Assembly: GCA_964658305.1 (NCBI GenBank)
Contig: OZ210885.1
Location: forward strand, 10,726,001-10,790,000
Direction: 5' to 3'
Origin: Leptogorgia sarmentosa
Taxonomy: Eukaryota
Length of the DNA: 64,000 nt
The position numbers and the translations under genes were made by a program. Positions within the stretch are counted from its first letter, which is position 1. Every line of letters starts with the position of its first letter. A model generated the notes under the pieces. It was not told the DNA's origin, searched no databases, and saw nothing but the letters and a program-made list of their open reading frames with translations. Below, piece after piece: positions 37,493 through 64,000 of this stretch.

Positions 37493-37963
37493 TTTTTTCT
37501 GAAAATTTCTATTTGGAACAGTTTGTTTTCACATATTCGAACTCGCCCAAGACAGGGATTAGATTCCCGGCTAACGCAGAATATTTTCGTTCTGATGAGT
37601 TTTAATTTCAATTGCAACACCAGAAAAAACGCAGCTTTGTAACACAGACATAATATACTGTAATAATTTTATCCATACCAGAGGATGGTAAAATTAATAT
37701 TTTCTGATATCAACCTCTTTTAGCTAAAACTATTTGATTGCCACAAACTCTTTTGATCGTGGACAGAGTTTTTGCATTGCTTTTTAAATTCTTGACTTTT
37801 ACTCGTCATAATTTCCCATTAGTAATTAATTTTACAATCTCCCCTTCGCATTAATTTTCTTCTTGGATCAATTTGTTTCAATTAACTCTGAATTAAAAAA
37901 AGGAAGGCGGAAGAGAAAGGTAATAAAATTCGCAGCATTTTAAAAACATTCAAATGTCAAAAT

Positions 37964-38022
37964 AGGCTCTGGCGAGACTTGAACTCGGAAGTCCAAAGTG
38001 CTAACCATTACACAACAGAACC
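37964..38022 (-). pseudogene. tRNA-Gln pseudogene (anticodon/variable region deleted)
   Basis: GGTTCTGTTGTGTAATGGTTAGCACTTTGGACTT-CCGAGTTCAAGTCTCG. Confidence 0.7.
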
Positions 38023-38141
38023 TTAACACGATCTTGACAATGTTTCCCAATTGTTTAACGTTTCTTCCTTTTTTTCGTAGCAAAAGGCACACTCTTCATT
38101 GGACGTGGTTATTTTCTAAACACGAATCTAAACACGCTAAG

Positions 38142-38223
38142 GGTAGCGTGGCTGAGTGGTCTAAGGCGCTGGTTTAAGGCACCAGTCATTTCGATGACGT
38201 GGGTTCGAATCCCACCGCTGCCA
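38142..38223 (+). tRNA. tRNA-Leu (AAG)
   Basis: 82 nt, long variable arm, loop TTAAGGC, GGTTCGAATCC. Confidence 0.92.
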
Positions 38224-38344
38224 AATTTTCGTTGTTCATGGACGTTGCGATTGATTTAGCAACTGTAAACTCACGAGTGTGTTTTGTTAAATAGTAATAT
38301 CCATTATTTTTGTTTTTCTTTTCGGAAGGTTTTCAATAGTGTCA

Positions 38345-38418
38345 GTCTCTGTGGCGCAGTCGGTTAGCGCCTTGGGCTGTTGACCGAAAGGTTGTTGGTT
38401 CGAGTCCAACCAGGGACG
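38345..38418 (+). tRNA. tRNA-Asn (GTT), divergent copy
   Basis: GTCTCTGTGGCGCAGTCGG...CTGTTGA...GGTTCGAGTCC; stem mismatches. Confidence 0.75.
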
Positions 38419-38534
38419 TGTTTGGTGTGTTCAGACGTCGTGACGGTAAATGTAACCGAAATTTTTACACGGGGTTTTCTAAGAATTTATGGAATCTTTC
38501 AAAAAAGAGAACATCTTACTTGGTTAATTAACTA

Positions 38535-38606
38535 GGGCTTGCACGGGAATGGAACCCGTGACCTCTCGAACCCTAAGCGAGAATCATACCACTAGACCAG
38601 CAAGCC
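38535..38606 (-). tRNA. tRNA-Pro (AGG), divergent copy
   Basis: GGCTTGCTGGTCTAGTGG...TTAGGGT; T-loop mutated (GTTCCA). Confidence 0.75.
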
Positions 38607-38692
38607 ATTGATGTATCAAATTGTTTTCTAATGTACTTTGTACTGACGGAGAAAAATATGACATTAAGTAATATCTCAGCCGTTCCAAAGTC

Positions 38693-38737
38693 GCCGTGAT
38701 CGTATAGTGGTAAGTACTGATTGCGTTGTGGCCGCAA
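38693..38737 (+). pseudogene. 5' half of tRNA-His (GTG)
   Basis: GCCGTGATCGTATAGTGG...TTGCGTTGTGGCCGCAA, then truncated. Confidence 0.7.
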
Positions 38738-38749
38738 AATAATATCCAT

Positions 38750-39194
38750 TATTATACATTTAAAATTTATTCTCGTTCCTGATTGGTCAGAAAGCACCGG
38801 CTAATTCTCAGTATTCAGTATTTATTACGTATTTTCCAAAAAAATAATTTATTTTCAATAATTATTTTTTTGGATCGAACTTGCATCCAAAAAAAAATTA
38901 TTGGACTCTCTCTTGCCCAAGCCCTTGCGCTGTCAAAAGCTTGAAGCTAAAAGCGAGCGAAAAAACAAACAAACAAACAAACAATGGCCTGCGGCAGATT
39001 TGCTTCGCTGAATGAAAGTGAACTCTCTTTTAAATGTATAATAAAACAATTATTAGATTCGGCTTTCGCATGATATCAAGAATTATTCAGACCTCGGTCA
39101 ATGTTATCCGCCTCAGCTTCGCTTCGGCAGATAACATTGACCTCGGTCTGAATAATTCTTGATATCATGCTCAGCCTCATCCAATAATTGTTTA
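38750..39194. mobile_element. Non-autonomous repeat with a long terminal palindrome, inserted in the tRNA-Asn flank
   Basis: Palindrome about 39045-39193; the flanks rejoin to match the uninterrupted copy near 38297-38330. Confidence 0.65.
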
Positions 39195-39235
39195 TTATTT
39201 TTGTATTTCTTTTCGGAAGGTTTTCAATGGAGTCG

Positions 39236-39309
39236 GTCTCTGTGGCGCAATCGGTTAGCGCGTTCTGCTGTTAACCGAAAGGTTGTTGGTTCGAGTCCAA
39301 CCAGGGACG
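39236..39309 (+). tRNA. tRNA-Asn (GTT)
   Basis: 74 nt, loop CTGTTAA, GGTTCGAGTCC. Confidence 0.85.
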
Positions 39310-39521
39310 TGTGTGGTGTTATTCAGACGTCGTGACGGTAAATGTAACCGATTTTTTGCGCGGGGTTTTCTGCGATTGATTGAAAAAATTCCAAAAAAAT
39401 AATGTGTGCCTCCGTCACGTATTCGGCTCACGTCAGTTCTCAAGAGAAAATCAGAACGGGATGTAGCATGTTGAAGGTAGCAAAGAATAAATGTGGTAGG
39501 AAATTCCATGTTTTCATGCGC

Positions 39522-39645
39522 GTCAGGATGGCCGAGCGGTCTAAGGCGCCAGACTCAAGTGCAGAAACTTGTCTCGATTAACCTTGACATAATAGGGCGT
39601 TCTGGTCCACACATGTGGTCGTGGGTTCGAATCCCACTCCTAACA
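39522..39645 (+). tRNA. Intron-containing tRNA-Leu (CAA)
   Basis: GTCAGGATGGCCGAGCGGTCTAAGGCGCCAGACTCAAG, then an intron of about 40 nt, then TTCTGG...GGTTCGAATCCCACT. Confidence 0.85.
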
Positions 39646-39786
39646 ACAAATTTACAAACAAATTGAGAACATTTCTTTTCAGAGTTGATCTGTTTACACA
39701 AATTCGATATCACCAAGAAATGTTACTGGTTTTTACTGAAAAATTCCAATGAAAAAAATTTCTCCATTTAAAAAATCGCATATGTA

Positions 39787-39863
39787 TGTTTCCGCCCAGG
39801 TTCGAACTGAGGACCTTCCGCGTGTTAAGCGCATGTGATAACCACTACATGCACTAAGGAAAC
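39787..39863 (-). pseudogene. tRNA-Val (AAC) pseudogene
   Basis: Val body with a 4-nt insertion near the D stem. Confidence 0.7.
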
Positions 39864-39976
39864 TGACATATGCGCAAACATATAGAAATAGATGTATTCA
39901 CTTTAATGAATTTTTTTCGTTTTTACTGAAAATTTCCAATGAAAAAAACATCTCCATTTAAAAAAGCTCATATGTA

Positions 39977-40049
39977 TGTTTCCGCCCAGGTTCGAACTGG
40001 GGACCTTGCGCGTGTAAGGCGCACGTGATAACCACTACACTACAGAAAC
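39977..40049 (-). tRNA. tRNA-Val (TAC)
   Basis: GTTTCTGTAGTGTAGTGGTTATCAC...CTTACAC...GTTCGAAC. Confidence 0.85.
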
Positions 40050-40215
40050 GAATTGGAAGAAAATTACAAAACAGAGACAAAGTTTCGGAGATGTGAACAT
40101 TTCTTTTCAGAGCTGATCTATTTACAAAAATTCGATATCACGAAGAAAATGTTTCTGGTTTTTACTGAAAAATTCCAATGAAAAAAAATTCCCCATTTAA
40201 AAAAGCTCATATGTA

Positions 40216-40288
40216 TGTTTCCGCCCAGGTTCGAACTGAGGACCTTGCGCGTGTGAGGCGCACGTGATAACCACCACACTACAGAAAC
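40216..40288 (-). tRNA. tRNA-Val (CAC)
   Basis: Same body, loop CTCACAC. Confidence 0.8.
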
Positions 40289-40599
40289 GAATTGGAAGAA
40301 AATTACAAAACAGAGACAAAGTTTGGGAGATGTGAATCGATGCAACAAAAAAATATGAAGCAAGTTAAAGGCCATGCAGGTCCAAGCCAGATTTAAACTG
40401 GGGTCCTTCCAGTGTGAGTCGCATGCAGTGACCAGTGTCCTACACGAAATGTATAACAATCCCTCAAATTCACCGTCGAAATTGATTATGCGAAATTTGT
40501 GGTGCCATTTCGTGGTTCCAATATAATTATTTCCAAGTAACAAATTTAAAATGAGAGCAGTAAGACTTTCCGCCCTCAGTCGCTGAATTAATGATTCTT

Positions 40600-40672
40600 T
40601 GTTTCTGCCCAGAATTGAACTGGGGACCTTGCGCGTGTGAGGCGCACGTGATAACCACTACACTACAGAAAC
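40600..40672 (-). tRNA. tRNA-Val (CAC), divergent T arm
   Basis: Same body, loop CTCACAC. Confidence 0.75.
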
Positions 40673-40918
40673 GAATTGGTACAAAATTAAAAAACAGAGA
40701 CAAAATTCTGGAGAAGAGCATTGATGCAACAAAAAATTTGAAACAAATTCATGGAGATGCAGGTCCTAGCCAGATTTAAACTGGGGTCCTTGCAGTGTTA
40801 GAAACTGTACAGCAATCCCTAAATTTAACCCTCCCAAGCACTAACAAGATAATACAAAAATAACATAAACACAGTATTTCCAATGACCATTGAAAATTCG
40901 CAATGTGTTAATTAACTA

Positions 40919-40990
40919 GGGCTTGCACGGGAATCGAACCCGTGACCTCTCGCACCCTAAGCGAGAATCATACCACTAGACCAGCAAGCC
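40919..40990 (-). tRNA. tRNA-Pro (AGG)
   Basis: 72 nt intact cloverleaf, GGTTCGATTCC. Confidence 0.92.
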
Positions 40991-41105
40991 ATTGATGGTA
41001 TAAATAAGTTCTCTAATATAATTTGTACTGACGAAGAAAAATATGGGATTAGTTAATGTAATATCTCAGCCCTTCCAAAACATTTTCCAATTTTTCAGCG
41101 ACGTG

Positions 41106-41177
41106 GCCATGATCGTATAGTGGTTAGTACATTGCGTTGTTACCGCAATGACCGAGGTTCGAATCCTGGTCACTGCA
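41106..41177 (+). pseudogene. tRNA-His-derived gene with anticodon GTT and a broken acceptor stem
   Basis: His body GCCATGATCGTATAGTGG; loop TTGTTAC. Confidence 0.7.
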
Positions 41178-41675
41178 TCTGTTTCATACAGCCAAAAGTA
41201 TTGTAATCACCATTACGGACATCGTCACCGTTGAAGTTCTGTTTATTATTGCCGTTGGATGTGAAGAGAAGATAAAAGCTATATTTTCGATCAGAAGACA
41301 ATTTTTGCTTTGTTTAGCGCGTGCGCTATGTTTGTTTTGCTTTGAAGCAATCTGTAGCTTGAGCTCTAATTTAATTGGTTCCAAGTGATAACAGAAAATG
41401 GCACTGTGATTACACAAAATTATGCTATGATTTGGGATTAACTGCACTGAAATAAACCAATCACAGTCGAGCTATACATTTACGTATATTATTAAGAAAG
41501 AAACGCCCTAAAGAATCCATTTTATTCGCACGCACCCTTGGGCTCAGGCCCCACGCAACGGTATAACCTCTTCTCACTATTCTACATATTATTCACAGTA
41601 TGGCGCTGAGAGTGTAGGTCAGTTGTAGATGTGAATGTTTAGTTTAACAACGCGAAACCTGTTGGTTGCAGCAAC

Positions 41676-41757
41676 GTAGTCGTGGCCGAGCGGTTAAGGC
41701 GACAGACTAGAAATCTGTTGGGAGTTTCCCGCGCAGGTTCAAATCCTGCCGACTACG
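41676..41757 (+). tRNA. tRNA-Ser (AGA)
   Basis: 82 nt, loop CTAGAAA, long variable arm. Confidence 0.92.
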
Positions 41758-42156
41758 TTATGCAAAGTCTTTGAAATTTTGGCCTCGAATATAAACATGA
41801 ATTTTTTTTTGGAAAACTCGATGAGAGGAAGTTCTGTTTTCGGTGGTGGTGGCTGAGTGTTTAAAGTGACAGATTCAATGTACAAGTTTTCCATCTACAA
41901 AATCAACGAAAAGAAATCCCGTTTTTATTGTATTAAGGTTATGAAACTGAAATGCAACGAAATTGAAATGCAACGAAATGAAAATATTCTGGGTTAGAAT
42001 TCTAGGTAACTGTTTTGGAAAAGCAAAATCATGACAACAAAGGCATACAGAAAACACCAAAAGAATGGGTAAGGTGGGATGGAGCTATTATAATAGCAAT
42101 GGTTTTGCTAATTTCTCGAATTGCATATTTTTTTCCTTCTCTCGTAAGTATTATTA

Positions 42157-42228
42157 TTCCCACGCCGGGAATCGAACCCGGGCCTTAGCGGTGAGAGCGC
42201 CAGATCCTGACCACTGGAATACATGGGA
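42157..42228 (-). tRNA. tRNA-Glu (CTC), divergent
   Basis: Glu body, loop CTCTCAC, A-box mutations. Confidence 0.75.
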
Positions 42229-43046
42229 GAAACATTTATCTTTTCTCAGAATGTGAAAATAACGATAATATTTTTAATTTGAATTTGGAAGAAAATTTCG
42301 AGAGATTACTACGAGTGAGAGTACTACGTATGAAAACATGGAATTTCCTACCACATTTATTCTTTGCTACCTTCAACATGCCACATCCCGTTCTGATTTT
42401 CTCTTGACAACTGACGTGAGCCGAATACGTGACGGAGGCACACATTATTTTAGTGGAATTTTTCAATCAATAGCAATCTATACTTCTCGTGTAGTGCACC
42501 AAGATGCAGGAGTGGGATTCAGATGCTTTTCCAATTTTGATAAAAAACATGCATGCACTTGTAAAAGTAACTGCAAGTCGTGCATCTTTGCAAAATCGTT
42601 CGCACATCCCAGCAAATTTGTATAGGAAATTACGCGGTTCGAGAAGTATTAATGAAAATTGCACGCGTGTTTGGCGAAATATTTCGCGGTATTTCGCCAA
42701 ACACAAGTGCAATTTTTCATTATTACTTCGAGAAAAAGTGTAATTTCCTTTTAATATCATTGTAGTAATTTCAGGGCAATTTCAATATCAAACAAATGAA
42801 AATCCATCGTAAATTTCTACGCAAACGAAAATTTTACAGTAGTTTACTTGTTTTTAAATTTACCGCTCGCATATCGCGGGCTCGAAACCGAGGTATTTGA
42901 AAAATGAATTACACACCTGTGTAATTAATGTTTAATTCGCACAATTGTTGAAGCTTTTTAGCCAATCAATTTAGCGCTGAGTGTGTTGGTGAGTGGTAGA
43001 TGTCAATGTTTAGTTGAACAACGCGAAACCCGTTGGATGTAGCAAC

Positions 43047-43128
43047 GTAGTCGTGGCCGAGCGGTTAAGGCGACAGACTAGAAATCTGTTGGGAGTTTCC
43101 CGCGCAGGTTCAAATCCTGCCGACAACA
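43047..43128 (+). tRNA. tRNA-Ser (AGA), second copy
   Basis: Duplicate of 41676-41757 including flanks; acceptor-stem mismatch. Confidence 0.8.
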
Positions 43129-43383
43129 CTACGCAAAGCCTCGAATGTAAACATGATTTTTTGGGGAAAAACCTTGATGAGAAGAGATTCTGTTCTCGGT
43201 GGTGGTGGCGATGAGTGTTTAAAGTGACAGATTCGAGAAGTCGCGTTTTTTTTGTATCAAGGTTATGAAACAAGCCAAAAATGATTTTGTATTTGAATGT
43301 AAATTTGAAAACAAAGAGGTCCGTGAATTGATTACAGCTGCGTTTGAAATAATATGTACGTAATTATCTTGGTAGTCCACACA

Positions 43384-43455
43384 GGGAGTGTAGCTCAGTG
43401 GTAGAGCATTCGACTGCAGATCGAGAGGTCGGTGGTTCAAATCCGCCCGCCCCTT
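43384..43455 (+). tRNA. tRNA-Cys (GCA)
   Basis: GGGAGTGTAGCTCAGTGGTAGAGC...CTGCAGA...GGTTCAAATCC. Confidence 0.85.
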
Positions 43456-43669
43456 AATTTACCGAACCTATAAACTGTAAAACTTTCAAATTCATGGGAA
43501 AAAATGCAACCCAAAGGGTTAAGATGCATATACTGCCATTCGTGTTAAATATATCCACCAATACTTGAATACGATTAGTCCTTCTGTTAAGTACTAAAAT
43601 ATTTTGTTCGAGTTTACGGCAGATTGAAGATTTATTCATATCGAAGTGCAAGCCAATACTAATGTCAAC

Positions 43670-46797: not shown

Positions 46798-49749
46798 ATG
46801 TATTCCCTTTACCATCCCCTTTCCTGGTTCCCGGTTTCCCGTTCCTTGTTTCACACATAGCCTTTAGTTATCCCCTCTTGTTACAATGCTGGCACAATCA
46901 TGGTCACCAAATCAACATCTACTTTGAAATGAAAAATGAAGCCCCACATGAAATGAGAAATGAAGCCCCCCGGCCAAATTTCTCGTTGTAATAATATTAT
47001 GTGTTGATTTCGTCAGATTCAATAATTACATCATTCAAATACTTTGACACAAAGCGACGAATGGTTATGTTTTCACACCTTAAACAATCACATTTTGACT
47101 TCTGGGCAGTAGACGTATCAAAATTATGGAAAGGTTCTGATTGGGATGAAACCAGAACTATGTTGATTCAAGCTTATGAAAGTTATGAATTACTGCTTAA
47201 ATGCACCATACCCAATGAATGCCCATTTACAGTGTGCGACGCGGAAAATAGACCTTAAAGCCTAAAATTGCAAAGCGAAATGACAAATCTTTGTCATTTA
47301 CTATTACTCTTGCAAAATGGCAAACTCACCAAATATATAGAATCACAAATAAAAGCTTATAAGCCAATTAATGTTCGAATATTATAGATATTATACCGAC
47401 ATGGTCAGATGATCTCTCAGACTTGCAAATCTAACTGCATATAATGTTAGCTTGAAGATTACCTTTTAAATCTCTTTCTTTATCTTTGTATCCCAAACCA
47501 AATGTAGCCCAATCTTTTCAATGATATCGATTATGTTATATATTGTTGAAAATACAAACGTTGTGCGATAATCCTGCCGATTTTATATACTCTCTCTAAA
47601 GAATGATAACAAATATCTCGCTGGCACCGAACTACGAGAAATAACAAAGTTGCTTTATTCATCAGTGTGATTGATATCAAAGAGTTTTTATAAGTGAAGT
47701 GTTTTGATTCTCTGGGATATTTTAATTTCTCGTTTCGCCACTTCCTTTCTATCTGTAAATCCTGTAGACATATATTGTTGACGTTTTTTGTTATGTTTTG
47801 CACATATACATGCAAATTAAACTGGACACTTTAAGACCAGAAAAATTGCCATCCCTATTAAATATATATTAACTGTACAAGTTCATCTGGTGCCCTGAAA
47901 ATTTCAATGATTGCGCAGCAGAGACGTGTAAAAAGTTTGAAATTTCCCGCTACAAAGCATGACTGTAGTGTATGTTTTTATAGCTTTCTGCCAGTGGATT
48001 AAAATTATTATTGCTTCACTTGATATTTACCACAATAACTCAGGTTTGGTTCCTGCTGATTACAATTATAATTATAATTATTAGGTCTGCATATTGCCCG
48101 TTTAAAACCTTACAATTCTATATAGAGAAGCTAGCGCATTTTCTGAAGTGATGAATCAGAACATTGTGTATAGCTCCCTCAATACCATGTGACCATTGTG
48201 AAGATATGTATTTGTAGACATTTGTCACTTGTCAAAGTTGTATGCGCTCAATAAATCATTTTCTAGAGAGTAAGAAATTTTGAAAAAGGTTACGTAACTG
48301 TCGTTGGCATGGCAACAATGACGTTTCTAAAATGGCAGATAACTGCCCTTTAAAGTAATTTAACTGGACAATTAGTTCGGTGACCCCCGTAATATGCTTT
48401 TAGTTATGGCATTTTGAATTATTCTGGTGAGTTTAACAAACATTATACAAACTAGGTAGCTAAACGTGATTATTTGACATAAAAAAAGTTTCGCTTGGTA
48501 GGAATTTTTTAAAATTCTAAAAATAATTTTAAACACGAAACGAAAGCCTTCTGTGAAATAAGAAATGGGGGTCAACTAACCCATTTTCAAGTTAAACTAA
48601 TTTAAATGGTGTCATTGTTGCCATAGCAACGACAGTTAGGTAATTTCTTTTTCAACGACAGTTATGTAATTTTTTTAAATTTCCTGACATTCAGACCAAG
48701 TGTTATTAAGCATATATATGTTCATTGTCTTTTAACGACTATTAATTGTCCAAAAATACAGATCAAAACTCCATATTAACCAGTATTAAAAAACTGTGTA
48801 GCGAGCCACCTGAAGGCAAGAGATTCTTGCTCACGCGAATTGAATGATCTGATCATGAATTTACAACTTATTGCAAAGAACTCCTGTCAGTGATGAAATA
48901 TTGTCAAACTAGCTTAAATTTCAATTTACAAGACCTTTTTTATAGGCTAATGTATTAGTACTCGCTGCATTTTACACACCACTAAATATTTACTCGCTAA
49001 CTAAACTAGTATTGCGTGGGGGTCAACAATATTAATAGCGCTAACCTAACAATTCTCCTGCAGGGCATAATATTATTATGGGCATATTATATTATTATGT
49101 TATAATTGAGGTATCCTATAAATAAATGTAAAGCTATTGGTCATGCATAAAGTGGAGATATTAAAATATTTCAAAACACTTTTTCGAACTGTGGGGTTCT
49201 TTAAAGGAATGTAAGATATGTGCTTTCGTTTTAAAGTTCTCGCGCGCATATCTACAAAACTCTTTCCCCTCAGTTACATGACTGATAGACGAGAATCACA
49301 GTAACATCTTCTTCGCTGTGATCGGTATTTGATTCTCGAAATCGTTAGTGCGAACTATTTTTAATTCTCCAATCATGCCTATGATAATTTCTTCCAAGAA
49401 GAAAGACAATACTAGAAGATGATTTGAAATTCACGACAGACTATAAAGACTTTTATTTACTGACAACCTAAGCAGTGAGGCTACGAACTCGTATCACAGA
49501 CCAACAAAATTTCCTCTTTTTCTTCAAACGGTAATCGCTATTGCTCCGCGTTTATACGTGTTTTGTGAAAGAAATCATTTGAATACTATTGAATTGAATG
49601 AAAATAAATATACATTATTTTGCAGGTATATTCTCGAAGCTCAAAAGTCATAACAATAACTGGCTTCAGCGAGATGTAGCTGCTCTGTACGCCGAACATT
49701 GAGTGCATGGTGAGTAGAATTTCTTTGTTGACGGAGTTAGTTTAACAGA

Positions 49750-51038: not shown

Positions 51039-52487
51039 AAGGTCTGTCAGCATAAAGGTAGGAATATTCGCCCCGCCAATTATCGATACTGGCTACACCA
51101 CTGAACTGTTTGAAAGTCAAATTAGTGTGTTTGATCTTTCTCTCTATAAGAACTCCCTAGTTCTAAAAACACAATGGAATGCCGGTCAACTAGTGATAAT
51201 TAAACTAAGCGAGTGTACGAGCTGGGGGTTTCAATATGGCATGACGGTAGATGAGAGGGAAACTCGAGTCGATCAACTGTCACCTTGGAGAAATCGAGCG
51301 CGAGTAACTCGGATCATTTTAGTAGAATCAAACTCAAAAATGAAACCTAATTAAGATATCGCACTTCATCATACATGCAAAATCACAACCGTAGCGAGGT
51401 TTTATATTGAGAGCATGACAGATAATTAAAGATCAACCTTCAAGTTAATTTACATAAACTTCAGCTTGAATTTTGTGACCTCTCGACGTTTACAGTTTAG
51501 ATTTCGTTCATTTTGAAGTTTCTTCGCCAACAAGCAAACGCGATATAGGTCGTTTTGAAGCCGTTTTTAAAATATAAATGGCTTAATTCTGGTTTGTTAA
51601 TTGTTGTATGAAACTTTATTAATACATGCATTCTTTTGCAGGAATATTCTCGAAGCTCAAAATCGCAACTGGCATCAGTGAGGTGTAGCCTTTATAATTA
51701 CAACAAGATTCCGGTGGTGAGTAGAATTAAATCAAATAATGTGTATAGCAAATATACAGGGCGTTCAAGAAAAGGTAATGAAGTTTAGCGAGCAATATAA
51801 AGCTTCATAATATAAGTAGGGTAAAACCTTTTAACTTGATTGGCTGATGAGCGTGCATAACAGCGTAATTCGAGCATCTGGCTATTGAATTTTCCCGCCA
51901 CTTATTTGTTTGACAAAAAGACTGTTAGATCTCCTATTTATTTCCTAGCTCAGAACTTTAGGACCAGCACACCAGCAACAGCAATTTATCACACACGGAA
52001 AAACAACACTTTATTGCACACCTCGAGTCCTATATATACAGTAATCTTTACATATTAATTAAGGTATTTACATAATTAGGCACGCCATATTACAAGACAA
52101 TAAAAATACATATACATGCTAATAATACATACATAAGAACGCTTCACTTGTTTGCTTTCGCTCAGCTAAAAAAATGAAGCTTGTTGTTGCTTGGCAACAT
52201 TTGAGAACACGGGTTATCACATGTAAGGAGAATTGTAATTTTGATCTTCCTGATGAAGTTGTTTATTGCGTTAAAGAATTACTGCAACGAATTTTTCGAA
52301 CCCCTTTTTATTGGCTTATTTTAAAGTACTTACTCTCCGAATATTTTTACCGCAAACAGAATTAAAATTGCTCTTTTCAAACGGATTTTATGGCCTTTCA
52401 AAGTTGCGATTTTTGGCTACTTCCGTGCGAACTTTTCGACCACCATATTAATGCCGTGTGACGTCACAAGTGTAACACATTGTCAAC

Positions 52488-52775
52488 ATGGCGTATATTT
52501 CTAATAGACGTAAAGCTACCCGCGGAGGAAAACGCTGCGTTGCTGACGGTCCTAACATAGTTAGCTGCGTCAATGATTGGAAAACTGAAGGAATGTCTAT
52601 GCATCTATTCCCTAATGAAGAAACAGATGCTCAGAGACGGAATAAGTGCGTGAAATTTGTCTGTAAACATAACCCGGGTTTTGACGCTACGGCGACCTCG
52701 TGCCTTCACTTCGAAGATTCGTGCTATGATATGAATCTAGAGTTAGCAAAATCGCTAAATATTAACTTGCTATGA
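52488..52775 (+). pseudogene. Degenerate THAP zinc-finger ORF
   Basis: CVA...SCVN...SMHLFP...RRNKC(W expected)VKFV...CLHFEDSCY. Confidence 0.75.
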
Positions 52776-53215
52776 ATTAGGACTATTTTCCTTATCATAT
52801 CAAATCAAATCAAATCAATTTATTCTGCCACAGCTTAAGTATTTACAAATTTAATAATTAGAAGGCAAGGAAGCCCAAATGAAAGGGCCTATAAAATTGT
52901 GCTCTTTTAAATACACACTTGTTCTGATAGATATTGAGACGGCAATGTGGAATCAATAATTATACTGATATCAATATATTGATACCAAAATTAACAATAT
53001 ATCATTACAGATGAATATTAAATAAAAGCAATAAAATATACATTCAAATTTAGCCTACGTCGGCTATTTTAATTAGGCTAAAGTCTAAACAGTCTTGAAC
53101 CTTCACTTATCACTGTTCCAGAGTTATTCTACCGTCGCTTCTTTGTTCAATAGTTGCTGGCAACAATCCATCTGGATCTTCTGGAACACAATTCGTTTCC
53201 CCAGGTTCTGCTATA

Positions 53216-53801
53216 CAGGGTGTCTCAAAAAAAAGGTAATCCAACTTTGGCATGCCATTGTGCGTTAATTACTGGGTGTACGAACGTGACTTTTGCATGG
53301 TCATAAAGATCAAGGTCTTAGCAGTTGAATGACATATTTCTTGCACGATATGGAAGAAAATCAGGCAAATGCGAGCCTATTGAAAAATCTCGGTGAAAAA
53401 CGCATTCTTTCACCTCTGAGAATTGCAGCTAAACTTATTCAAAATTAACTCCCTCTGGGACTCGAAGATGACGACCTTCCCTTCAACAATCGACCTGAGT
53501 ATGCATAATTATTAATAATCCTGATAAAATCTTTGTTACCATGACACATTCGTGATGAATGGCATTTTTCTTTTGTTATGCACTGCTTTAATTAGGCACA
53601 GAGGTGAAAGAATGCGTTTTTCACCGAGATTTTCCAACACGCTCGCATTTGCCTGATTTTCTTCCATATCGTACAAGAAATATGTCATTCAACTGCTAAT
53701 ACCTTGATCTTTATGACCATGCAAAAATCACGTTCGTACACCCAGTAATTAACGCACAATGGCATGCCAAAGTTCGATTACCTTTTTTTTGAGACACCCT
53801 G
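53216..53801. mobile_element. Tc1/mariner-type MITE nested in the Kolobok-like element
   Basis: ~215-bp TIRs beginning CAGGGTGTCTCAAAAAAAAGGTAATC; TA flanks. Confidence 0.9.
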
Positions 53802-54299
53802 TATATATAGGTTCGACGTCGTACGCAAAGAAGTGCGATATGACATGAACTAACGAGTCGGATCACCGGGTCATGCAGTTTCACTTGAACTTTCACACGA
53901 TTGCGGGTCTTTCACACGATCCCCGCCAGACTCGTTACTCGACTTGAGCAAAATATATTGTCTTAAAATGCCTATGTTCAAGTTTTGTTTCAAAAGATAT
54001 TTTTTCCGGCCAAAAAAGCGCGAGAAACACAGAGTATAGCTCTAACGCAATACAATTTACTAGTAGCTTCGCTAAACGTGTTACACTTGTGACGTCACAA
54101 GGTGACAAAATGGCGGCTGTTTTGTTCGCATCCGGTATCGAAGTTTAGAGGCGAAATTTAGTTACTTCCACTCAACGTACAAAAGTCATCTATACACCAA
54201 ATTTCATCTTTCGACCTGATTATTTATTTAAGGCAAAAAAAACGAGGTAGAAAAAATTCGTTGCAGTAACACTTTAATAATCTCTTATATTATCAAAGA

Positions 54300-54540: not shown

Positions 54541-55813
54541 TGTATTTCACCAGTCATAGAGGTGAATGAATGACATGTCTTTTTTCTCCATTTTTGGAAC
54601 GTTAAAAATATTTCCGAAAACACATATTTTCACCATTACGAATTGAAACTGAACTAATTGAAAATTTACTCTCGTGAGATTTAAAAATTACCAGCTGCAC
54701 TCCAATAAGCGCCTAGAATATGAATAATTTTTAATAACCCTGGTAAACTATATAAATCATCGAGCTGAGCTATATGTGAGCGCATTTGATTGCCCTTATC
54801 ATTTGCTATGCACTGCTGTTTATTAAGCGCGGAGTGATTACCGTGACACCAATCTTTAAATTGTATTACCTTTATCAAGTTGCATTACCTTTTTTTATAG
54901 ACCGTGTATAATAAAAATTGGCTTATTAAAATACTGCCGATATCCTTGTAATGCCACGATTGTTCGCTTTAGGGAATTTTAACCGGCTTCACACACTATA
55001 AAATTTTTTGTATAAATGATAAAATTGCCAATTAATTTTGTTTACAATTCGTGAGAAATTAAAGTGGCTCCACTCACCACAGATTGAACCATTCAAATTC
55101 GAACAATAGGTAACTTCACCCAAACGCTAACCCTAGATATAGAGGGTGCCCAAAAAACCAAAGGAGCATTGCATGAAATTCACCATTTTTCTAATTTGAA
55201 TTTCCTAAAACTAAGCTTAATGGATGGTGTTCTTCTTCATTATTAATGCGCACTTTTTTGCTCATTAGAATTTAAAACTATACAGTATCATTTTACTATT
55301 AATTTTGATAGTCATCTCAATTTTTCACGCTCTCCCATAGATTCGATAGTGCTTTTACATTGACAAATTAGATTCACAATGTATGAAAACGCTCCTAAAC
55401 CCCCCTAGAGTATTCGCACGAGGGATGTAGAAACGTTTTCGATATAACGCCAGCAAACCAGGATGAGAGTTTGGGTTTTTTTGTGCCTTTTAGCACCATG
55501 GAAGCTGTGTAACACCATGTAACATTGTGAAGGATCACTTTGTCGTCTTCTCTTACCACGGCACTGTTTAACACCTAATCCTGTTACAGAACTCCGCACA
55601 GTTTAAATCGTGCAAAGCATAGAATTAAAATATTCACCCAAAGGCCTCACATGCATTGAATTTGTGACAGTAATGTAATAGGGGGAAACACACAGTACTA
55701 TATACGAAATATACGAAATATTAGCAGCCTTGACGGTGACCCACCTGATTGTGAGGAAGAACTGGATTACAAAACTCATGATCAATTCTTATTTAATTTT
55801 AAGGTGTCCTCCA

Positions 55814-55940
55814 ATGGCGAAGGCAGTAAGCACCGTTGCCACATCACCTGAAGAAAAAAGATGGTCTACAAATGGTATTTGTCTTAACAAAATTCTTACA
55901 CCTAATTAACTTGAGAAATGTTCTTGTTACAGGATTCCAG
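55814..55940 (+). pseudogene. Remnant of a DZIP3-like HEPN exon upstream of the kinase-KEN gene
   Basis: MAKAVSTVATSPEEKRWSTNGICLNKILTP, then frameshift, LRNVLVT; aligns by eye with SEEEQHWVLVGIAFTKVLAPALRKVVAT near 7230. Confidence 0.65.
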
Positions 55941-56137
55941 TAGTCCTATACACACCTTTAGGAGGTTCTTAGCTTGATTTGGTATTTTATATTATTTCTG
56001 TATAAAAGAGAGATTTTTAAAATGCCAAACGCCACAAAGATGAACAAGCTTTAGTAAAAATAGCTATTATATTCGAGATTTGTAGGTGCATAGTCACATT
56101 CTGACCATCTGTAATCTGAATAAATATCTTTTTTAAG

Positions 56138-57644
56138 AGAGCAATGAATCATGGAAATGGGAAAAGGTTTCTAAAACACATGAAAAAAAGTTCGAAAAGT
56201 TGATCAAACATGGACAGGAGCATCCTGGCGAAATCATGGAAATAAACGGTGTACGTGTTTGTTTGGATGAAAAGTTTCTTATTGGCACTGGTGGTCAAAG
56301 TAATGGAGTTTATGTGGGATTAGGAAAAGATGGTAGTGAAAAGGCTGTGAAACTTTTTCTCAAAGCTACTCACGGGCATTTAGCTCAAAAAGAAAAGGAG
56401 TTGTTGATAAAATGCGAAACTAAAGAGCTAGCTCATGTTGTTAGGTATTGGTACTTAGACAACACCAGTCACAACACATTCGCATTTTTAATCATGGAAT
56501 TGTGCGAGGAAACATTAGAAACTTTTGTCACTCGCAATGGTCAGGACGGTTTGATAAAAGCTGCACCAGGTATACTTAAGCAAATTTTAAAAGGATTAGC
56601 AGATCTCCATCGCGAACCATGTTGTATTTTGCATCGTGATGTGAAACCGTTGAATATTCTGCGAAATGCCAATGGTAAGTGGTTGCTGGCAGATTTTGGA
56701 ATCGGGCGGATCTTGTCAGATGATGAAACTACGTTCATGAGCATGGAGAGGGGAACAAAAAAATGGAGAGCCGTTGAATCGTGTTCTGAAAGCAGCACTT
56801 CCGGTGATGGCAGAGTTAGGTACAAGACGAAATCTGATATCCAGGTGTGATTTTTCTTATATAAATTCACGTTAATTTACCTTCGATCACTCGTCTTATT
56901 TAGCAATTTAGGGTCTGAAATAAGTGTGGCCTGGTCATACACGTTACCTGTGAAACATAATTTTATCGTATTTTCACTTTGTTTACATGTACAGTACTAG
57001 TCTTTCTGTTCTTTTGTTTATCTTATAGGTAACTGGAATGGTAGCATTTTACATTTTGACAAAACGTAAACATCCTTTCGGAGAAAATGAACAACGAATA
57101 CATGACAACTTACTCGCCGGCAATCCTGTTAAACTGAATATGTTGGACAGTCATCCTTTGGCGAAGGATTTGATATCCTGGATGTTGAGCCACGATCCCA
57201 ACGATAGACCATCGGCTGAAGAAGCATTACAACACCCTTATCTTAAGTCAAACGAACAACAGTTCAATTTGTTGTGTGGAATAGGAAATGAGTCCCACGT
57301 CAAGAAAAAGGATGTGAATTCTGATGTCGTGAAAGAGTTGAATAAAGACACAACAGATTGGAGAACTCGGATGGATAGCGATGTTTTGAATTATTTAAGT
57401 TATGATCAGTTGAAGAAGATATCATTCAAATACACCTCGTCTTGGACGGACTGTTTACGGCTAATTCGTAATATCAAAGAGCATTGGAAAGACTGTCCTA
57501 GGACGGAACCCGGGGCAATGAAAGTGGGTGATCCTCAAGAATATTTCCTTCATTTCTTTCCTGATCTTGTTCTCAGAGTTTACAAAATTATCAGATCATG
57601 TGATGATTTGAAAGAACTGCCAGGTCTGAAGGAATATTTCAGAG
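56138..57644 (+). CDS. Kinase-KEN module (two exons)
   Basis: Intron 56845-57028 (GT-AG) joins SDIQ|VTGMVAFYILT; HPFG, RPSAEEALQHP and RNIKEH are typical of the IRE1/RNase L family. Confidence 0.9.
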
Positions 57645-60600
57645 GTACGTATAGTTTTCGAAATAAAGCCTTTTTTAGCAGCCTGATTTAGGCTGCTCGA
57701 TTTATGTATCTACGTACGCTCTCTATGAACGTACACAAGCTTGTTCAGTATTTCCAGTTGAGCCCCAAAGTTCAATCTCAAAGTGATTTAACGATTTTAC
57801 TGAACATGCATACTTAAGCTTCGACATTAAGCGCGACATAGTGACGCGTAATTTAATGAAATTTTTGCATTTTCAACAAAAAAGCAGCAAACATGTTACA
57901 ACAAAAAACGTTATTTTCCGGCTACAGACATTTTAAGAAAATTGTTTCCTCTACTAGGTGTTCCACTAGAATCACAAGAAAGGGCACCGGCAAATGATAA
58001 TAAAACTGACCCAATCGGCAACGAAGACTCGATTAGTGATGTCCCGGAGAGTAGTTTTCGAGTTACCAAAGTCACTGGGGAAACGGCAGATGTGAGGTAT
58101 GCAATTAAGATTAATGAAAACACATGCTCATACATGTTTAATACCGATATAACATGTCCAGTGGATATTAAAATGTCCAATATGAACAAATGAATTGAAC
58201 AAATAAACAAATGGCATGCTTAATTTACGCTGTACGTAATTTGCATACGGAAATACCTACCTGTAAAATATTCCACTTAGACCTAACACTTGTTTCAAAT
58301 CATCACATGATATATGGCAATTTGGTACACGGACGTACGAACTCCTCTTTGCATACTAATCACTTTCGACGCCAGATGTACGTGGTAAATTGGTAATACC
58401 ACAGAGTAATGCTACTAGTGCTCGCTTCGGCCATGCCAATTGTGAGAAAAACCCATCTCGCCTCTGTTCATCTCATCTGGTTTTAATTTGGTCTTTTCAC
58501 TATGGTATTTTAGCGGCTCAGGCGGTTCAAATACCCAACAAGCAACATTTTCTAAACTTGTTTACATATTTATCAAAATAAGAAAACTTTTCAAAACATG
58601 ATTGTTTTCATCAGGTAAAACACTGCAGTATTTATGAATTTGTTGATAAAATTACGGAAGAAACAGAACTCAAAGTAGTTCTATGAAACATTTTTGTCAA
58701 CAATATAGGTTCAGATTTCGAACATCATAATTGTCAAAAACACACGAAAGGAAGTAAGGACTAAGGGCTGTTTAACAACATACGTACCGCTTGAATTTAA
58801 AAAACAAACGATTTTCATGACAAATGTGTGCTTTTTCCTCAGATAGTCCAAACAAAGAAGCAAACCGTTTTCAAAATACGGCTGAGTAGTCTCGAATTTT
58901 CCATGCGCATCTGATCTATATAGATCGCGTTAAACTGCAGGGAGCTACCGTAATTGGTTAGTAAGGCGAGGGGTTACTGCATATATCTATTTCTAGTATT
59001 ATACATAACCGTAACGTCGTTGCGTACTAATTTTCTGCTAACCACTACATCATTGCATACTAATTATTGCGATATTAAAATCATGACGTCGTTGCATACC
59101 AATTAGCTACGCCCAAAAACATGACGTCATTTGTATGTTTACCATTAGTCGGTGTTTGTAATCAATCCCTAAGTGATATTATGATAAAACTGAAATATTG
59201 AACGAGTTTCTCAGATAGACCCAATGACTTTCACGATTTATTATTTTACACAGATCTCTTGACAACAAGGATCTTTCTGCGGGCGTGGAACATATTGTTA
59301 TAACTGCTGAGAAGAGTGACTTGAATAAATATACGCAGGTAATTATACATGATTTTCTGAAACTTTAATTCTCTAGATAAACATAAAATAGTGAAACACA
59401 CCCAAACGCACCTCACCCCCAGTCCTTCCCAAGACAAACTATGAATTGATCCCTCACCTTTAACAGGTACAATATAATTGCATGGTCGTTACTTACTCAC
59501 AGCGCATTGTCGACCATTTACACATGTAACGAAAGCTGCTTTATGGTCTAGACTTCATATATTTGAAAACTATGACCAAAAATGGCTGCCGTCATCTGTT
59601 GCGTATTTGCACGTGCGTTTACCACGGAAAAGTTCATGATTTTATTCCTTTCAACTTTTCCTTATGAAATAACTATTTGCATAGAAATAAAGCATACAAC
59701 TTCATTTGTGGTTTAATGTGTATTCTTTAACTAAAGTAATTGGTACTTTAATGAAATTTTGAAAAATTTAAGCCTTTCCGAGCGTCACGCAAGTGCAAAA
59801 ATACCGTAACTGGAAAGCAGCCTTAAGGAACTGAATGTATTTACCGATACTTTGAAGCGCTCTATAAATTTTTAGCAATTTATTTTAGATGCGGTGTTCA
59901 TTCCTTTTTTTCCCTGCTGGCTTTTGCGTACAATATACTACGCCTAATCCCACCCTAAACCCTAAAATCCTAAGCCTAACCGTAGAGGTCGAAGAAATAT
60001 GTAGGAAAAAAGACGTTTTAACTCGTTTTAAGTATAATCATATAGAGGGCAAATTTGAGACACATCGCGTGCCTCGCCGTTTGAGCTAATTTCGAACTCG
60101 CTCAAAACCACGATCAACGAAAGTATTTAAAATGAAAATGTATTCCGTCAAATTTAATGTGCTTTCCATTTTTCAAATTAGCTTAATTAAAGTTTTCGCA
60201 CATTTGTGATCGTGCTTTGAATAAGCGCCGCAATTGTCGATACTCGAAAACTTGAGTAAATATTATATTTCCCCGATATAATTATGCAATCTTTTTGTAG
60301 CGTAAAAGAATAGAAGAAATGAAAACAACTAATTCAGTATCGAAAAAGAAAGCTCTTGAAACGGCAATAAACAAATACCGAGAGAATCATGCTGACACTG
60401 CTAGAAAGTATAATGAAATGGGAGTCGCACAATTTAACATGAAAGATTATAAATCCGCATTACAGTCATTTCAACATGCTCTTGAAATCAGATTAAAACT
60501 GTTTGGAGAAAATCACGCTGACACTGCTCGAAGTTATCACAACATTGGAGCTTCACAACATGAGATGAAAGATTATAAATCCGCATTACAGTCACATCAA

Positions 60601-61356
60601 CATGCTCTTGAAATTAGATTAAAACTGTTTGGAGAAAATCGTGCTGACACTGCTCGAAGTTATCACGAAATTGGGGCTGCACAACATAAGATGAAAGATT
60701 ATAAATCCGCATTACAGTCATTGCAACATGCTCTTGAAATCAGATTAAAACTGTTTGGAGAAAATCATGCTGCCACCACTCGAAGTTATTACAGCATTGG
60801 AGTAACACAACATAAGATGAAAGATTACAAATCCGCATTACTGTCATTTCAACATGGTCTTGAAATCAAATTAAAACTGTTTGGAGAAAATCATGCTGAC
60901 ACTGCTCAAAGTTATTACAGCATTGGACGCACACAACGTGAGATGAAAGATTATAAATTCGCATTACAGTCACATCAACATGCTCTTGAAATCAGATTAA
61001 ACCTGTTTCAAGAAAATCATGCGGACACTGCTGAAAGTTATCACGAAATTGGAGTTACACAACATGAGATGAAAGATTATAAAACCGCATTACAGTCACA
61101 TCAACATGCTCTTGAAATCAGATTAAACCTGTTTCAAGAAAATCATGCGGACACTGCTGAAAGTTATCACGAAATTGGAGTTACACAACATGAGATGAAA
61201 GATTATAAATCCGCATTACAGTCACATCAACATGCTCTTGAAATCAGATTAAAACTATTTGGAGAAAATCATGCTGACACTGTAAGTACCTATAAGCTCA
61301 TTGAACGCTTGCGAGGTGATATGAAAGATGGATTTATAATACAATATAGCTTTTGA
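56138..61356 (+). CDS. RNase L/IRE1-like kinase + KEN ribonuclease, probably spliced to a C-terminal TPR array
   Basis: Exons 56138-56844, 57029-57644, 57958-58091, 60301-61356 are phase-compatible using donor GAT|GTGAGG. Kinase motifs IGTGG, AVK, HRDVKPLN, DFG, GTKKWRAVE; KEN motif CLRLIRNIKEHW. Start codon uncertain (in-frame ATG at 56236). Confidence 0.72.
60301..61356 (+). CDS. TPR array (42-aa kinesin-light-chain/nephrocystin-type repeats, 7 full plus 1 partial)
   Basis: 126-bp near-identical units ENHADTAxSYxxIGxxQHxMKDYKSALQSxQHALEIRLKLFG. Confidence 0.92.
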   Translation, partial: RKRIEEMKTTNSVSKKKALETAINKYRENHADTARKYNEMGVAQFNMKDYKSALQSFQHALEIRLKLFGENHADTARSYHNIGASQHEMKDYKSALQSHQHALEIRLKLFGENRADTARSYHEIGAAQHKMKDYKSALQSLQHALEIRLKLFGENHAATTRSYYSIGVTQHKMKDYKSALLSFQHGLEIKLKLFGENHADTAQSYYSIGRTQREMKDYKFALQSHQHALEIRLNLFQENHADTAESYHEIGVTQHEMKDYKTALQSHQHALEIRLNLFQENHADTAESYHEIGVTQHEMKDYKSALQSHQHALEIRLKLFGENHADTVSTYKLIERLRGDMKDGFIIQYSF

Positions 61357-61954: not shown

Positions 61955-62477
61955 GATAGATAGATAGATAGATAGATTTATTTATTTAGAACTTAAAAAC
62001 TTGCAGCCTAATACTTGTGCATCTGCTGAATAATGTTAAGTTTTACAATATCGACTAGTCATAATAAAAATTAATTCGATTCAGTTACATATTTACACTA
62101 GTTACAATTAATAAAATCATTCTTAAATCTGTTGGTCTTAAAAGAAGGAACTTGGAATATTCTTCTTCCTCGCAGGTTTGTTTCGCCGGAGGCAATAAGT
62201 CATATAATTTATTATTAGGGTCACTGACAATGTTTTTAAAAAGTTTATTTGTTAAAAACTGTCTTCTTGCTGCCAGGGTAACTAGACCCATTCGGACCAT
62301 GGCTTCCTTGTACCGATAATCTGGTAATATAATTTTACAAGCACGTTTCTGAAGTCTTTCAAGTTCATCAGATAAGTATGCTGAGAGGGAGTCGTGAAAA
62401 ACTTCGCAGGCGTATTCGATGACTGGACGGATACAGGTTACGTAGAATAGAAATGTATAGCAAATACTCAATTTCAC
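61955..62477 (-). mobile_element. 3' fragment of a CR1/L2-group non-LTR retrotransposon with a microsatellite tail
   Basis: FYVTCIRPVIEYACEVFH...LERLQKRACKII is typical of LINE ORF2 C-termini; (gata)n/(ttta)n tail at 61955-61990. Confidence 0.8.
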
Positions 62478-62726
62478 CTTCCCAAATACTAAGAAGATGA
62501 CGCAAAAACAACATAAACTCAGAACGTTCCATTGAAAATTCCTAATGGAATATATTAAAATCGTTCGATTTTAACTGCGATTGATTGAAAAAATTCCAAT
62601 AAAATAATGTGTGCCTTTGTCACGTATTTGGATCAGGTCAGTTGTCAAGAGAAAATCAGAACGGGAAGTGGCATGTTGAAGGTAGCAAAGAATGAATGTG
62701 GCAGGAAATTCCATGTTTTCATGCGC

Positions 62727-62849
62727 GTCAGGATGGCGAACGGTCTAAGGCGCCAGACTCAAGTGCAAAAACTTGTGACGAGCAACCTTGACATAATAGG
62801 GCGTTCTGGTCCACACATGTGGTCGTGGGTTCGAATCCCACTCCCGACA
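62727..62849 (+). tRNA. Intron-containing tRNA-Leu (CAA), divergent duplicate
   Basis: Paralogue of 39522-39645 with a D-arm deletion; flanks also duplicated. Confidence 0.7.
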
Positions 62850-62989
62850 ATAAATTTTAAAATATTGAGAGCATTTCTTTTCAAAGCTGATCTATTTACA
62901 CAAATTCAATATCACCAAGAAAATTTTTCTGGTTTTTACTGAAAAATTCCAAAGAAAAAAATATCTCCCGTTAAAAAAGCTCATATGTA

Positions 62990-63062
62990 TGTTTCCGCCC
63001 AAGTTCGAACTGAGGACCTTGCGCGTGTTAAGCGCATGTGATAACCACTACACTACGGAAAC
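62990..63062 (-). tRNA. tRNA-Val (AAC)
   Basis: GTTTCCGTAGTGTAGTGG...TTAACAC...GTTCGAAC. Confidence 0.8.
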
Positions 63063-63371
63063 TGACCTATGCGCAAAATAATTCAGTTTAATTCGATAAT
63101 TATTGTTCGAAATTTGTAGTGCCATTCGTGGTTTTAAGTTACAACTTTCACACAGGAAGTCAATAAGCGAGGAACTTGTAACAGGAAGTGAGGAACTTCT
63201 AACAGACTTATCGACTCTGGGAGTAATCGTTTGTCAAAGATAGAAAACCAGGACATTATCTGAATTTTAATCTTTTTGCAATATGAACTGAATTAGTGAA
63301 GAATAGCAAAGATAAATTGGGTAATAAAATTGAACGGCAAGCTTCTGAAATCAACACGGAGTTGTCAACGT

Positions 63372-63456
63372 GCCTCATTAGCTCAGAGGTTAGAGCACTG
63401 GTCTAGTAAAACAGCTAGTAAACCAGGTGTCCTGAGTTCAAATCTCTGATGAGGCT
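63372..63456 (+). pseudogene. tRNA-Thr (AGT) with a duplicated anticodon loop
   Basis: CTGGT-CTAGTAAAACAG-CTAGTAA-ACCAG. Confidence 0.7.
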
Positions 63457-64000
63457 CAATTTTTCTCGATTTCTTCGAAGCACGGTGAAGACAATTGCCA
63501 CGAATATGTTGCATGAGTTATATCCAAGATGTGGACACTGATCAAATAAAAAACCTAATCAAAGAGCCTTATGTACGATAAAGCATCTTAGAAGGTTTCA
63601 CCTGCATGTCGCCTCATTAGTTCAGGGGTATAGAGAATTGTCGAATTTAAAATACGTAATAATAAGCATTTATAACTGGATTGGCGTTCATATCATTTTG
63701 TGGGGAAAATATTTAATGGAAGGACGTTATATTGAGCAGTGGTTTGACGTTTAAGTTTAATATAGACGTGTCATAATCTATGACGCAACGACGAGAGCAC
63801 ATGTTTAGAAGAGTGCGCTTCGATTGCTAGTAGGAACATTTAGTTCAGTGTATTGGGTTTGTATTTGTGCTAACCACGCAGGGCTGTATATAAGTTTATG
63901 CTAACCGGGAGAACGTTCATTGTTTAGTTGAATTTGTAACAGAAGTGAGTACGCTTATATCTTATATCTATGGTCATAAATCTATTAATTTGCATGCGTA

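What the first reader, a model, noticed from the sequence alone, without database searches (positions are those of the whole stretch)
56138..61356. RNase L/IRE1-like kinase-ribonuclease with a C-terminal variable TPR sensor
Seen: kinase, KEN domain with RNIKEH, linker exon and TPR exon in compatible phase; no transmembrane or ankyrin region. Known: IRE1 uses a luminal sensor and RNase L uses N-terminal ankyrins; RNase L has a similar RN-x-x-EH site. Inference: a cytosolic innate-immune RNase using an NLR-type TPR array as sensor.
Basis: partly seen in the sequence, partly recalled or inferred. Interest (0 to 1): 0.7.

Follow-up and report, generated by a model that had tools for sequence, protein, structure and literature searches.

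The report
Soft-coral RNase L cousin, TPR sensor
This coral-type gene encodes a kinase joined to an RNA-cutting domain resembling our antiviral enzyme RNase L, and it is predicted to be spliced to a variable repeat array that likely serves as a pathogen sensor in place of RNase L's own trigger-binding part.

Summary
The domains are real, but the gene model needed correcting. The window holds an intact kinase (VAVK, HRD, DFG), a KEN nuclease with RNIKEH and seven full 42-residue TPRs, with no membrane segment, ankyrins or NTPase. A small 5' exon (55804-55874) supplies a likely start; the model is 887 aa. The KEN alone scores closer to RNase L than to IRE1 (40 vs 22 bits), and the kinase-KEN falls outside IRE1 (UFBoot 99), in a clade whose named members are octocoral. 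Relatives carry N-terminal TPR, WD40, Macro/KH or HEPN, or C-terminal Death or TROVE; 0 of 134 KEN-bearing proteins fetched put TPR after KEN. The repeats are the type found on coral NLRs and vary mainly at the known ligand-binding positions. Best reading: a cytosolic, NTPase-free sensor-nuclease in which a bound ligand would dimerise the kinase-KEN and cut RNA. Splicing, expression, activity and immune role are untested. New variant of a known kind.

The parts
55804..55874 (+).
   Evidence: In frame with the kinase exon; weak local alignment to the spliced linker before the kinase in relative L002; single-copy contigs break around it and a second contig with differences covers it; donor is weak (2.7)
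56138..56844 (+). Kinase exon: N-terminal helix, Gly loop, VAVK, helix-C Glu, HRD, DFG, activation loop
   Evidence: Pfam Pkinase E 3.5e-20; best PDB match IRE1, E 6e-13; motifs located
57029..57644 (+). Kinase C-lobe plus KEN (HEPN-type) ribonuclease, ending in a phase-1 donor where close relatives have a stop
   Evidence: Ribonuc_2-5A E 5.8e-16; relatives L001-L003 run across the 56845-57028 intron without it and L004 has an open frame through the same point; L001-L003 stop just after the KEN; another copy in this organism has a same-phase donor
57467..57484 (+). Predicted catalytic R-N-x-x-x-H motif (RNIKEH)
   Evidence: Aligns to RNLGEH of RNase L 4o1o and RNKYHH of yeast IRE1; H672 is catalytic in human RNase L (PMC10400998)
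57958..58096 (+). Low-complexity linker exon, phase 1 to 2
   Evidence: Stop-free; score reached in 21 of 1000 resamplings; covered by many more contigs than the middle of the preceding intron; gaps in one divergent contig sum to 6 nt
59254..59338 (+). Missed 85-nt linker exon, phase 2 to 0
   Evidence: Best acceptor of 86 and best donor of 110 in the intron; 5 of 1000 resamplings; a break between single-copy contigs falls on it
60301..61356 (+). Terminal exon: seven full 42-aa TPRs (60388-61269) plus a partial capping repeat and stop
   Evidence: Pfam TPR_12 E 2e-89; repeats 82-96% identical in DNA; 81 of 126 pairwise residue differences at TPR positions 2, 5, 6, 9, 12, 13 against 107 of 756 elsewhere

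Best explanation
This is a six-exon gene, likely from an octocoral, predicted to encode an 887-residue cytosolic protein with an intact kinase, an RNase L-like KEN nuclease and a C-terminal array of NLR-type TPRs, which likely works as a one-piece immune sensor-effector: a ligand bound in the TPR groove would bring two kinase-KEN modules together and switch on RNA cleavage. Shown: the domains, catalytic motifs, lack of membrane, ankyrin or NTPase parts, phase-compatible splice sites, placement outside IRE1, further copies in the same organism, and variability concentrated at TPR ligand positions. Inferred: that all exons lie on one mRNA; that the nuclease needs a dimer, as in IRE1 and RNase L (PMC4536996); that the intact kinase adds an IRE1-like autophosphorylation step; that the ligand is a foreign or damage-associated protein; and that the outcome is translational shut-off or cell death. 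The family appears to treat the kinase-KEN as a plug-in effector whose input domain is swapped by exon shuffling, the same step by which RNase L is proposed to have gained ankyrins (PMC10400998).
For: Gene model: every junction is AG/GT and in phase, giving 887 aa with no internal stop. Two intervening exons with strong sites bridge KEN to TPR (5 and 21 of 1000 by chance). A donor replaces the stop seen in L001-L003; another copy has a same-phase donor and one contig joins the KEN end to the linker exon across a different intron (side only 27 letters). Nuclease: KEN-only search ranks RNase L first, 40 vs 22 bits; profile of 5 KENs gives 45 vs 24 bits. Tree: 49 sequences, a 37-member clade without the 12 IRE1-side sequences has UFBoot 99. 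Sensor: 0 of 120 listed long relatives of the TPR exon carry kinase or KEN, and by inspection most list NACHT/AAA/NB-ARC families. Variability at positions 2, 5, 6, 9, 12, 13 is matched by 49 of 5,245,786 six-position sets; these are the ligand-contact positions in PMC1261162. Highly conserved TPRs under diversifying selection typify fungal NLRs (PMC4986451). Direct TPR-effector fusions without NACHT are expanded in corals (PMC12314368). Partner domains in relatives are largely immune-type: TPR, WD40, Death, HEPN_DZIP3, Macro/PARP14-KH, TROVE.
Against: 0 of 134 KEN-bearing proteins fetched have TPR after KEN, while 12 of 49 clade members have it before the kinase by my profile, so no relative vouches for this order. 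The three closest loci (79-80% identity) stop right after the KEN. No listed contig spans KEN to TPR. The TPR exon has its own ATG near its start (60319) and could belong to a separate transcript. Over the whole kinase-KEN, IRE1 scores higher than RNase L (169 vs 103 bits), and the KEN-only tree gives the non-IRE1 clade just 41. No true RNase L sequence was in my trees. The 5' exon matches an internal exon of relatives, so unseen upstream exons are possible. The seven repeats are related by duplication, so the permutation figure overstates significance. Some C-terminal partners in Xenia models (asparaginase) and an N-terminal PALP may be annotation read-through.
Confidence: 0.55

Rival explanations
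1. The fusion is real, but the TPR array is a guard, adaptor or autoinhibitory lid rather than a direct sensor: it binds a host protein or an NLR complex, and the nuclease fires when that partner is altered or oligomerises.
For: The repeats are the same type as those of coral NLRs; Death-domain fusions in Xenia relatives suggest recruitment to signalling platforms; partner-less 400-440 aa relatives exist.
Against: Variability concentrated at groove positions fits changing ligands better than one fixed host partner, though it does not exclude a guard role.
Confidence: 0.2
2. The kinase-KEN is a stand-alone gene (reading on to the stop at 57689-57691 or ending in the linker), and the TPR exon is a separate gene or an orphaned NLR fragment, or the fusion is a recent non-functional shuffle.
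For: Closest relatives stop after the KEN; no relative has this order; TPR exons are very abundant in this organism; no contig spans the locus.
Against: Strong donor at 57645 (9.7) and two phase-matched bridging exons; other copies share the donor phase and the linker exon; all reading frames are intact.
Confidence: 0.15
3. It is a non-immune cytosolic stress or trafficking enzyme: the TPRs bind chaperones or cargo (as Hsp70/90 co-chaperone or kinesin-light-chain TPRs do; recalled), giving a cytosolic version of IRE1-type RNA decay, or the kinase is the output and the KEN is accessory.
For: The kinase is intact and most like IRE1; only 44 of 75 clade units match the R-N/K-x-x-x-H pattern while 63 of 75 keep the kinase motifs.
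Against: This copy keeps RNIKEH; multi-copy, rapidly shuffled families with variable repeats are typical of immune genes, not housekeeping adaptors.
Confidence: 0.1

Closest known systems
RNase L (clade B of Chu et al. 2023, PMC10400998; PDB 4o1o, 4oau)
   Same: Cytosolic kinase-fold plus KEN with a repeat domain as input; KEN motif RN-x-x-EH and flanking GNES, GDP and FPDLV blocks align.
   Different: No ankyrins; TPR instead, and C-terminal; the kinase keeps its catalytic motifs whereas RNase L has a pseudokinase (PMC4536996); RNase L proper is reported only from jawed vertebrates.
IRE1 (PDB 2rio, 3p23)
   Same: Intact kinase followed by KEN; best whole-module match.
   Different: No luminal domain or membrane helix; KEN motif is not RNKxHH; separate clade; multi-copy and domain-shuffled.
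'RNase L-related' PK-RNase proteins outside clade B (Chu et al. clades C1-C4, D, E)
   Same: Non-IRE1 animal kinase-RNase proteins, some with independently gained ankyrins; fish, lungfish, amphioxus and Lingula proteins group with this family in my tree.
   Different: The main text does not contain 'TPR' or 'cnidaria'; its Fig. 2 and supplement could not be seen, so the clade assignment and any TPR architecture shown there are unknown.
Coral NACHT/AAA-TPR NLR-like proteins and TPR-CHAT / glycosyltransferase-TPR proteins (PMC12314368)
   Same: Same 42-aa TPR type as the NLR-like proteins (44-61% identity); effector fused directly to TPR, as in TPR-CHAT.
   Different: No NTPase; the effector is a kinase-ribonuclease.

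Membership tests
KEN/HEPN ribonuclease | R-x4-6-H motif with a polar residue after R | tested here: met
   RNIKEH aligned to RNase L and IRE1 sites; motif definition from PMC3710099 passages
KEN/HEPN ribonuclease | Endoribonuclease activity | not testable with these tools
   Needs an assay
IRE1 | Luminal sensor and transmembrane helix | tested here: not met
   Max hydropathy 0.94 vs 2.2-2.6 in controls; tblastn of all fetched proteins found no such exon upstream
IRE1 | Intact Ser/Thr kinase motifs before KEN | tested here: met
   AVK, helix-C Glu, HRD, DFG
IRE1 | Groups with IRE1 orthologues | tested here: not met
   Non-IRE1 clade UFBoot 99 on kinase-KEN; only 41 on KEN alone; one IRE1-side sequence is named IRE1 by its source, three have a hydrophobic segment
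RNase L | N-terminal ankyrin repeats | tested here: not met
   No ankyrin hit; ankyrin-bearing queries found nothing upstream
RNase L | Pseudokinase | tested here: not met
   Catalytic motifs intact; RNase L described as a pseudokinase in PMC4536996
RNase L | RNase L-type KEN sequence | tested here: met
   RNase L ranks above all IRE1 chains for the KEN alone
RNase L | Monophyly with vertebrate RNase L | tested here: inconclusive
   No bona fide RNase L sequence was available for the trees
RNase L | Activation by 2-5A | not testable with these tools
   The 2-5A-binding ankyrin domain is absent, so activation by it is unlikely (inference)
NLR/STAND receptor | Central NACHT or NB-ARC NTPase | tested here: not met
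   None in the model; 120 NLR-type proteins used in tblastn hit nothing in the gene outside the TPR exon region examined; introns hold no other + strand ORF of 80 aa or more except the linker read-through
NLR/STAND receptor | C-terminal, highly conserved repeats with variable ligand positions | tested here: met

The most novel reading that the evidence does not exclude
Octocorals run an expanded, undescribed immune receptor family built on the pre-vertebrate ancestor of RNase L: a kinase-KEN effector cassette with an active kinase, exon-shuffled onto interchangeable sensors (TPR at either end, WD40, Macro/KH, HEPN, TROVE, Death) and into tandem arrays of up to five units. These would be NLR-like receptors that use kinase-KEN dimerisation instead of an NTPase switch, and this gene is a recent capture of an NLR's TPR sensor exon.
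Probability: 0.45. Interest if true: 0.8.

Novelty: new variant of a known kind. Interest (0 to 1): 0.62.

Why it matters
RNase L is reported to have arisen in jawed vertebrates when a kinase-RNase protein gained ankyrins (PMC10400998), and corals were scored as lacking it (PMC6307210, Table 1). What the precursor proteins sensed and did is open. This family shows the same cassette being fitted with other input domains in corals, and it offers a direct test in the published yeast growth and RNA-decay system. It would add an RNA-destroying arm to coral innate immunity and a natural modular, ligand-gated ribonuclease.

Tried and rejected
No whole genome is held, so the other copies could not be read whole. 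No RNA holder was listed; this is no evidence on expression. The three runs are one sample of DNA-type contigs covering introns; summed depth is not a copy number. Structure predictions were poor: relative P0002 pLDDT 54 with the kinase mostly under 50, and the single-sequence TPR model 41 (not used). The fold search returned IRE1 and RNase L at similar weak scores and does not discriminate. No homodimer prediction was obtained, so there is no verdict on binding. The Atlas returned kinase plus Ribonuc_2-5A clusters, nothing new. The linker peptides matched none of the fetched proteins at E up to 1 among rows shown, nor the 3' parts of L001-L004. The 58091-60301 direct splice is kept only as a possible exon-skipping isoform; 58096-60309 is in frame but has a poor acceptor (-0.6). 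Three look-ups of earlier findings were empty. Literature searches for the architecture: 0 papers; 0 papers; none listed a paper on coral kinase-KEN proteins. PMC3974923 was not held. The supplement and figures of PMC10400998 could not be read and may show such architectures.
Full report
Setting. The window is intron-rich eukaryotic DNA at about 36% GC. The named relatives of the gene are from Paramuricea clavata (56% identity) and Xenia sp. (40-44% to the query relative), and those of the TPR exon are from stony corals, so the source is likely an octocoral (inference). No whole genome is held.

Observation. Pfam finds Pkinase in 56137-56844, kinase C-lobe plus Ribonuc_2-5A in 57029-57643 and TPR_12/TPR_10 in 60301-61353. 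The kinase intron is supported by relatives: L001-L003 align to both flanking exons with no intron between, and L004 has an open frame through the same point. A scan with a generic splice-site matrix of my own (approximate textbook frequencies, recalled) found an 85-nt exon at 59254-59338 with the best acceptor of 86 and best donor of 110 candidates, stop-free in exactly the phase that joins 58096 to 60301. Chance level was 5 of 1000 first-order Markov resamplings, and 21 of 1000 for the linker exon. A 5' exon at 55804-55874 provides ATG 55814 in frame. It aligns weakly to a coding linker that precedes the kinase in L002, so more upstream exons are possible, but tblastn with all fetched proteins found only an unrelated kinase and a minus-strand HEPN-like exon in the 55 kb upstream. 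The model is 887 aa in six exons with no hydrophobic segment.

Copies in this organism. Contigs of one DNA sample (X1-X3) cover introns and exons alike. Summed depth is about 195 in the middle of the KEN-linker intron and mostly 2,200-3,600 over the linker exon in X1, with one bin at 850. The tool warns that this is no copy number, but it shows many similar contigs on the exon. One divergent KEN end carries a GTAAGT donor in the same phase, gaps in one linker-exon contig sum to 6 nt, and one contig joins the KEN end to the linker exon across other sequence. No listed piece spans KEN to TPR.

Family. Searches with the KEN exon (12 hits among 429 candidates), a kinase-KEN profile (29 hits) and the representative library (best 150 of 651 at E up to 1e-30) gave a family with many architectures: TPR-kinase-KEN, WD40-kinase-kinase-KEN, Macro/PARP14-KH-kinase-KEN, HEPN_DZIP3-kinase-KEN, tandem arrays of up to five units, and tails with Death or TROVE-vWA (Pfam was run on 51 of the fetched proteins). 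With my own profiles, 12 of 49 clade members have N-terminal TPR, and 0 of 134 KEN-bearing proteins have TPR after the KEN. Pfam shows N-terminal TPR in P0166 and P0025 as well, which my profile missed. Of 75 kinase-KEN units, 63 keep the kinase motifs and 44 match the nuclease pattern. The three closest loci stop after the KEN, so the donor and the TPR tail look like a recent, lineage-specific gain (inference).

Placement. The whole module scores best against IRE1 (169 vs 103 bits for RNase L), which is expected if RNase L's pseudokinase has drifted (inference). The KEN alone ranks RNase L first (40 vs 22 bits; 45 vs 24 for a 5-sequence profile). FastTree on 147 units and IQ-TREE on 49 of them put the window outside the IRE1 group (UFBoot 99), in a clade with amphioxus proteins (100), next to fish, lungfish and Lingula proteins (names). 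The KEN-only tree is weak at that node (41). No vertebrate RNase L was in the trees, so 'nearer RNase L' rests on the PDB scores.

Sensor. The 120 listed long relatives of the TPR exon (of 581 at E up to 1e-40; 7,994 candidates scored) have no kinase or KEN, and by inspection mostly list NACHT, AAA or NB-ARC families. The seven repeats are 82-96% identical in DNA. With the register set by the Pfam TPR_1 match, positions 2, 5, 6, 9, 12 and 13 hold 81 of 126 possible pairwise residue differences, against 107 of 756 elsewhere. These are the ligand-contact positions given in PMC1261162. The repeats are not independent, so this is a pattern, not a test of selection.

Mechanism. IRE1 and RNase L both activate their nuclease by dimerisation driven by an input domain (PMC4536996). 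I infer that ligand binding to the TPR groove plays that role here, with autophosphorylation possible because the kinase is intact, and RNA decay as output (0.55). Rivals are a guard, adaptor or autoinhibitory role for the TPR (0.2), no real fusion (0.15) and a non-immune role (0.1). I put the fusion itself at about 0.8.

Literature seen. PMC10400998: parts 1-4 of 6 of the main text (abstract, results, discussion, most methods) and a term search; figures and supplement not available. It defines RNase L as clade B, derived from a PK-RNase protein by ankyrin gain. Passages only: PMC6307210, PMC3710099 (lists KEN fusions to kinase, ankyrin, CCCH, ubiquitin and BRCT, not TPR), PMC1261162, PMC12314368, PMC4986451, PMC4536996, PMC11797021 and PMC13319465 (nothing on this family). 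Ten searches listed no paper on coral kinase-KEN proteins; most subscription journals are not covered.

Verdict. A real, intact gene whose exon model is corrected here. It works like RNase L or IRE1 but is a member of neither. New variant of a known kind; interest 0.62. The bolder reading, an expanded coral receptor family built on the RNase L precursor, has probability 0.45 and interest 0.8.

Noticed in passing
window 677-1096 and 6586-7326, minus strand: An NB-ARC exon and a HEPN-like exon with RNPWAH that matches the N-terminal domain of Xenia kinase-KEN protein P0172 (E 2e-14): likely a HEPN-NB-ARC NLR, showing a domain pool shared with the kinase-KEN family.
   Followed up: partly
proteins P0013-P0025 (Xenia sp.): Tandem arrays of 2-5 kinase-KEN units in one model, often with only some units keeping the catalytic motif; some end in Death or TROVE-vWA (Ro60-like) domains.
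   Followed up: partly
window 37421-43456 and 62990-63457: 16 tRNA gene calls, 14 in one cluster and 2 just downstream of the gene; 62575-63077 is a 90% copy of 39370-39878.
   Followed up: no
window 49626-49709 and 51642-51716, plus strand: Two similar small exons with strong GTGAGT donors; the first has stops in all three frames by eye. Possible 5' UTR exons of this gene.
   Followed up: partly
window 58253-58311: Inverted 83% copy of the KEN end (57595-57652) inside the next intron.
   Followed up: no
window 18781-21474, plus strand: A second, unrelated kinase followed by a 259-aa ORF with no Pfam match.
   Followed up: no
window 23671-27615, 52476-52775, 53212-53805, 62085-62570: Long ORFs without Pfam match that look transposon-derived (recalled resemblance to MULE and THAP proteins), a 207-bp inverted repeat at 96.6% and a LINE-like tail.
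   Followed up: no
proteins P0030-P0039, P0199, P0206, P0217, P0244: Further non-IRE1 kinase-KEN proteins with ankyrin, ubiquitin or CARD domains in fish, lungfish, Lingula and unnamed records.
   Followed up: partly
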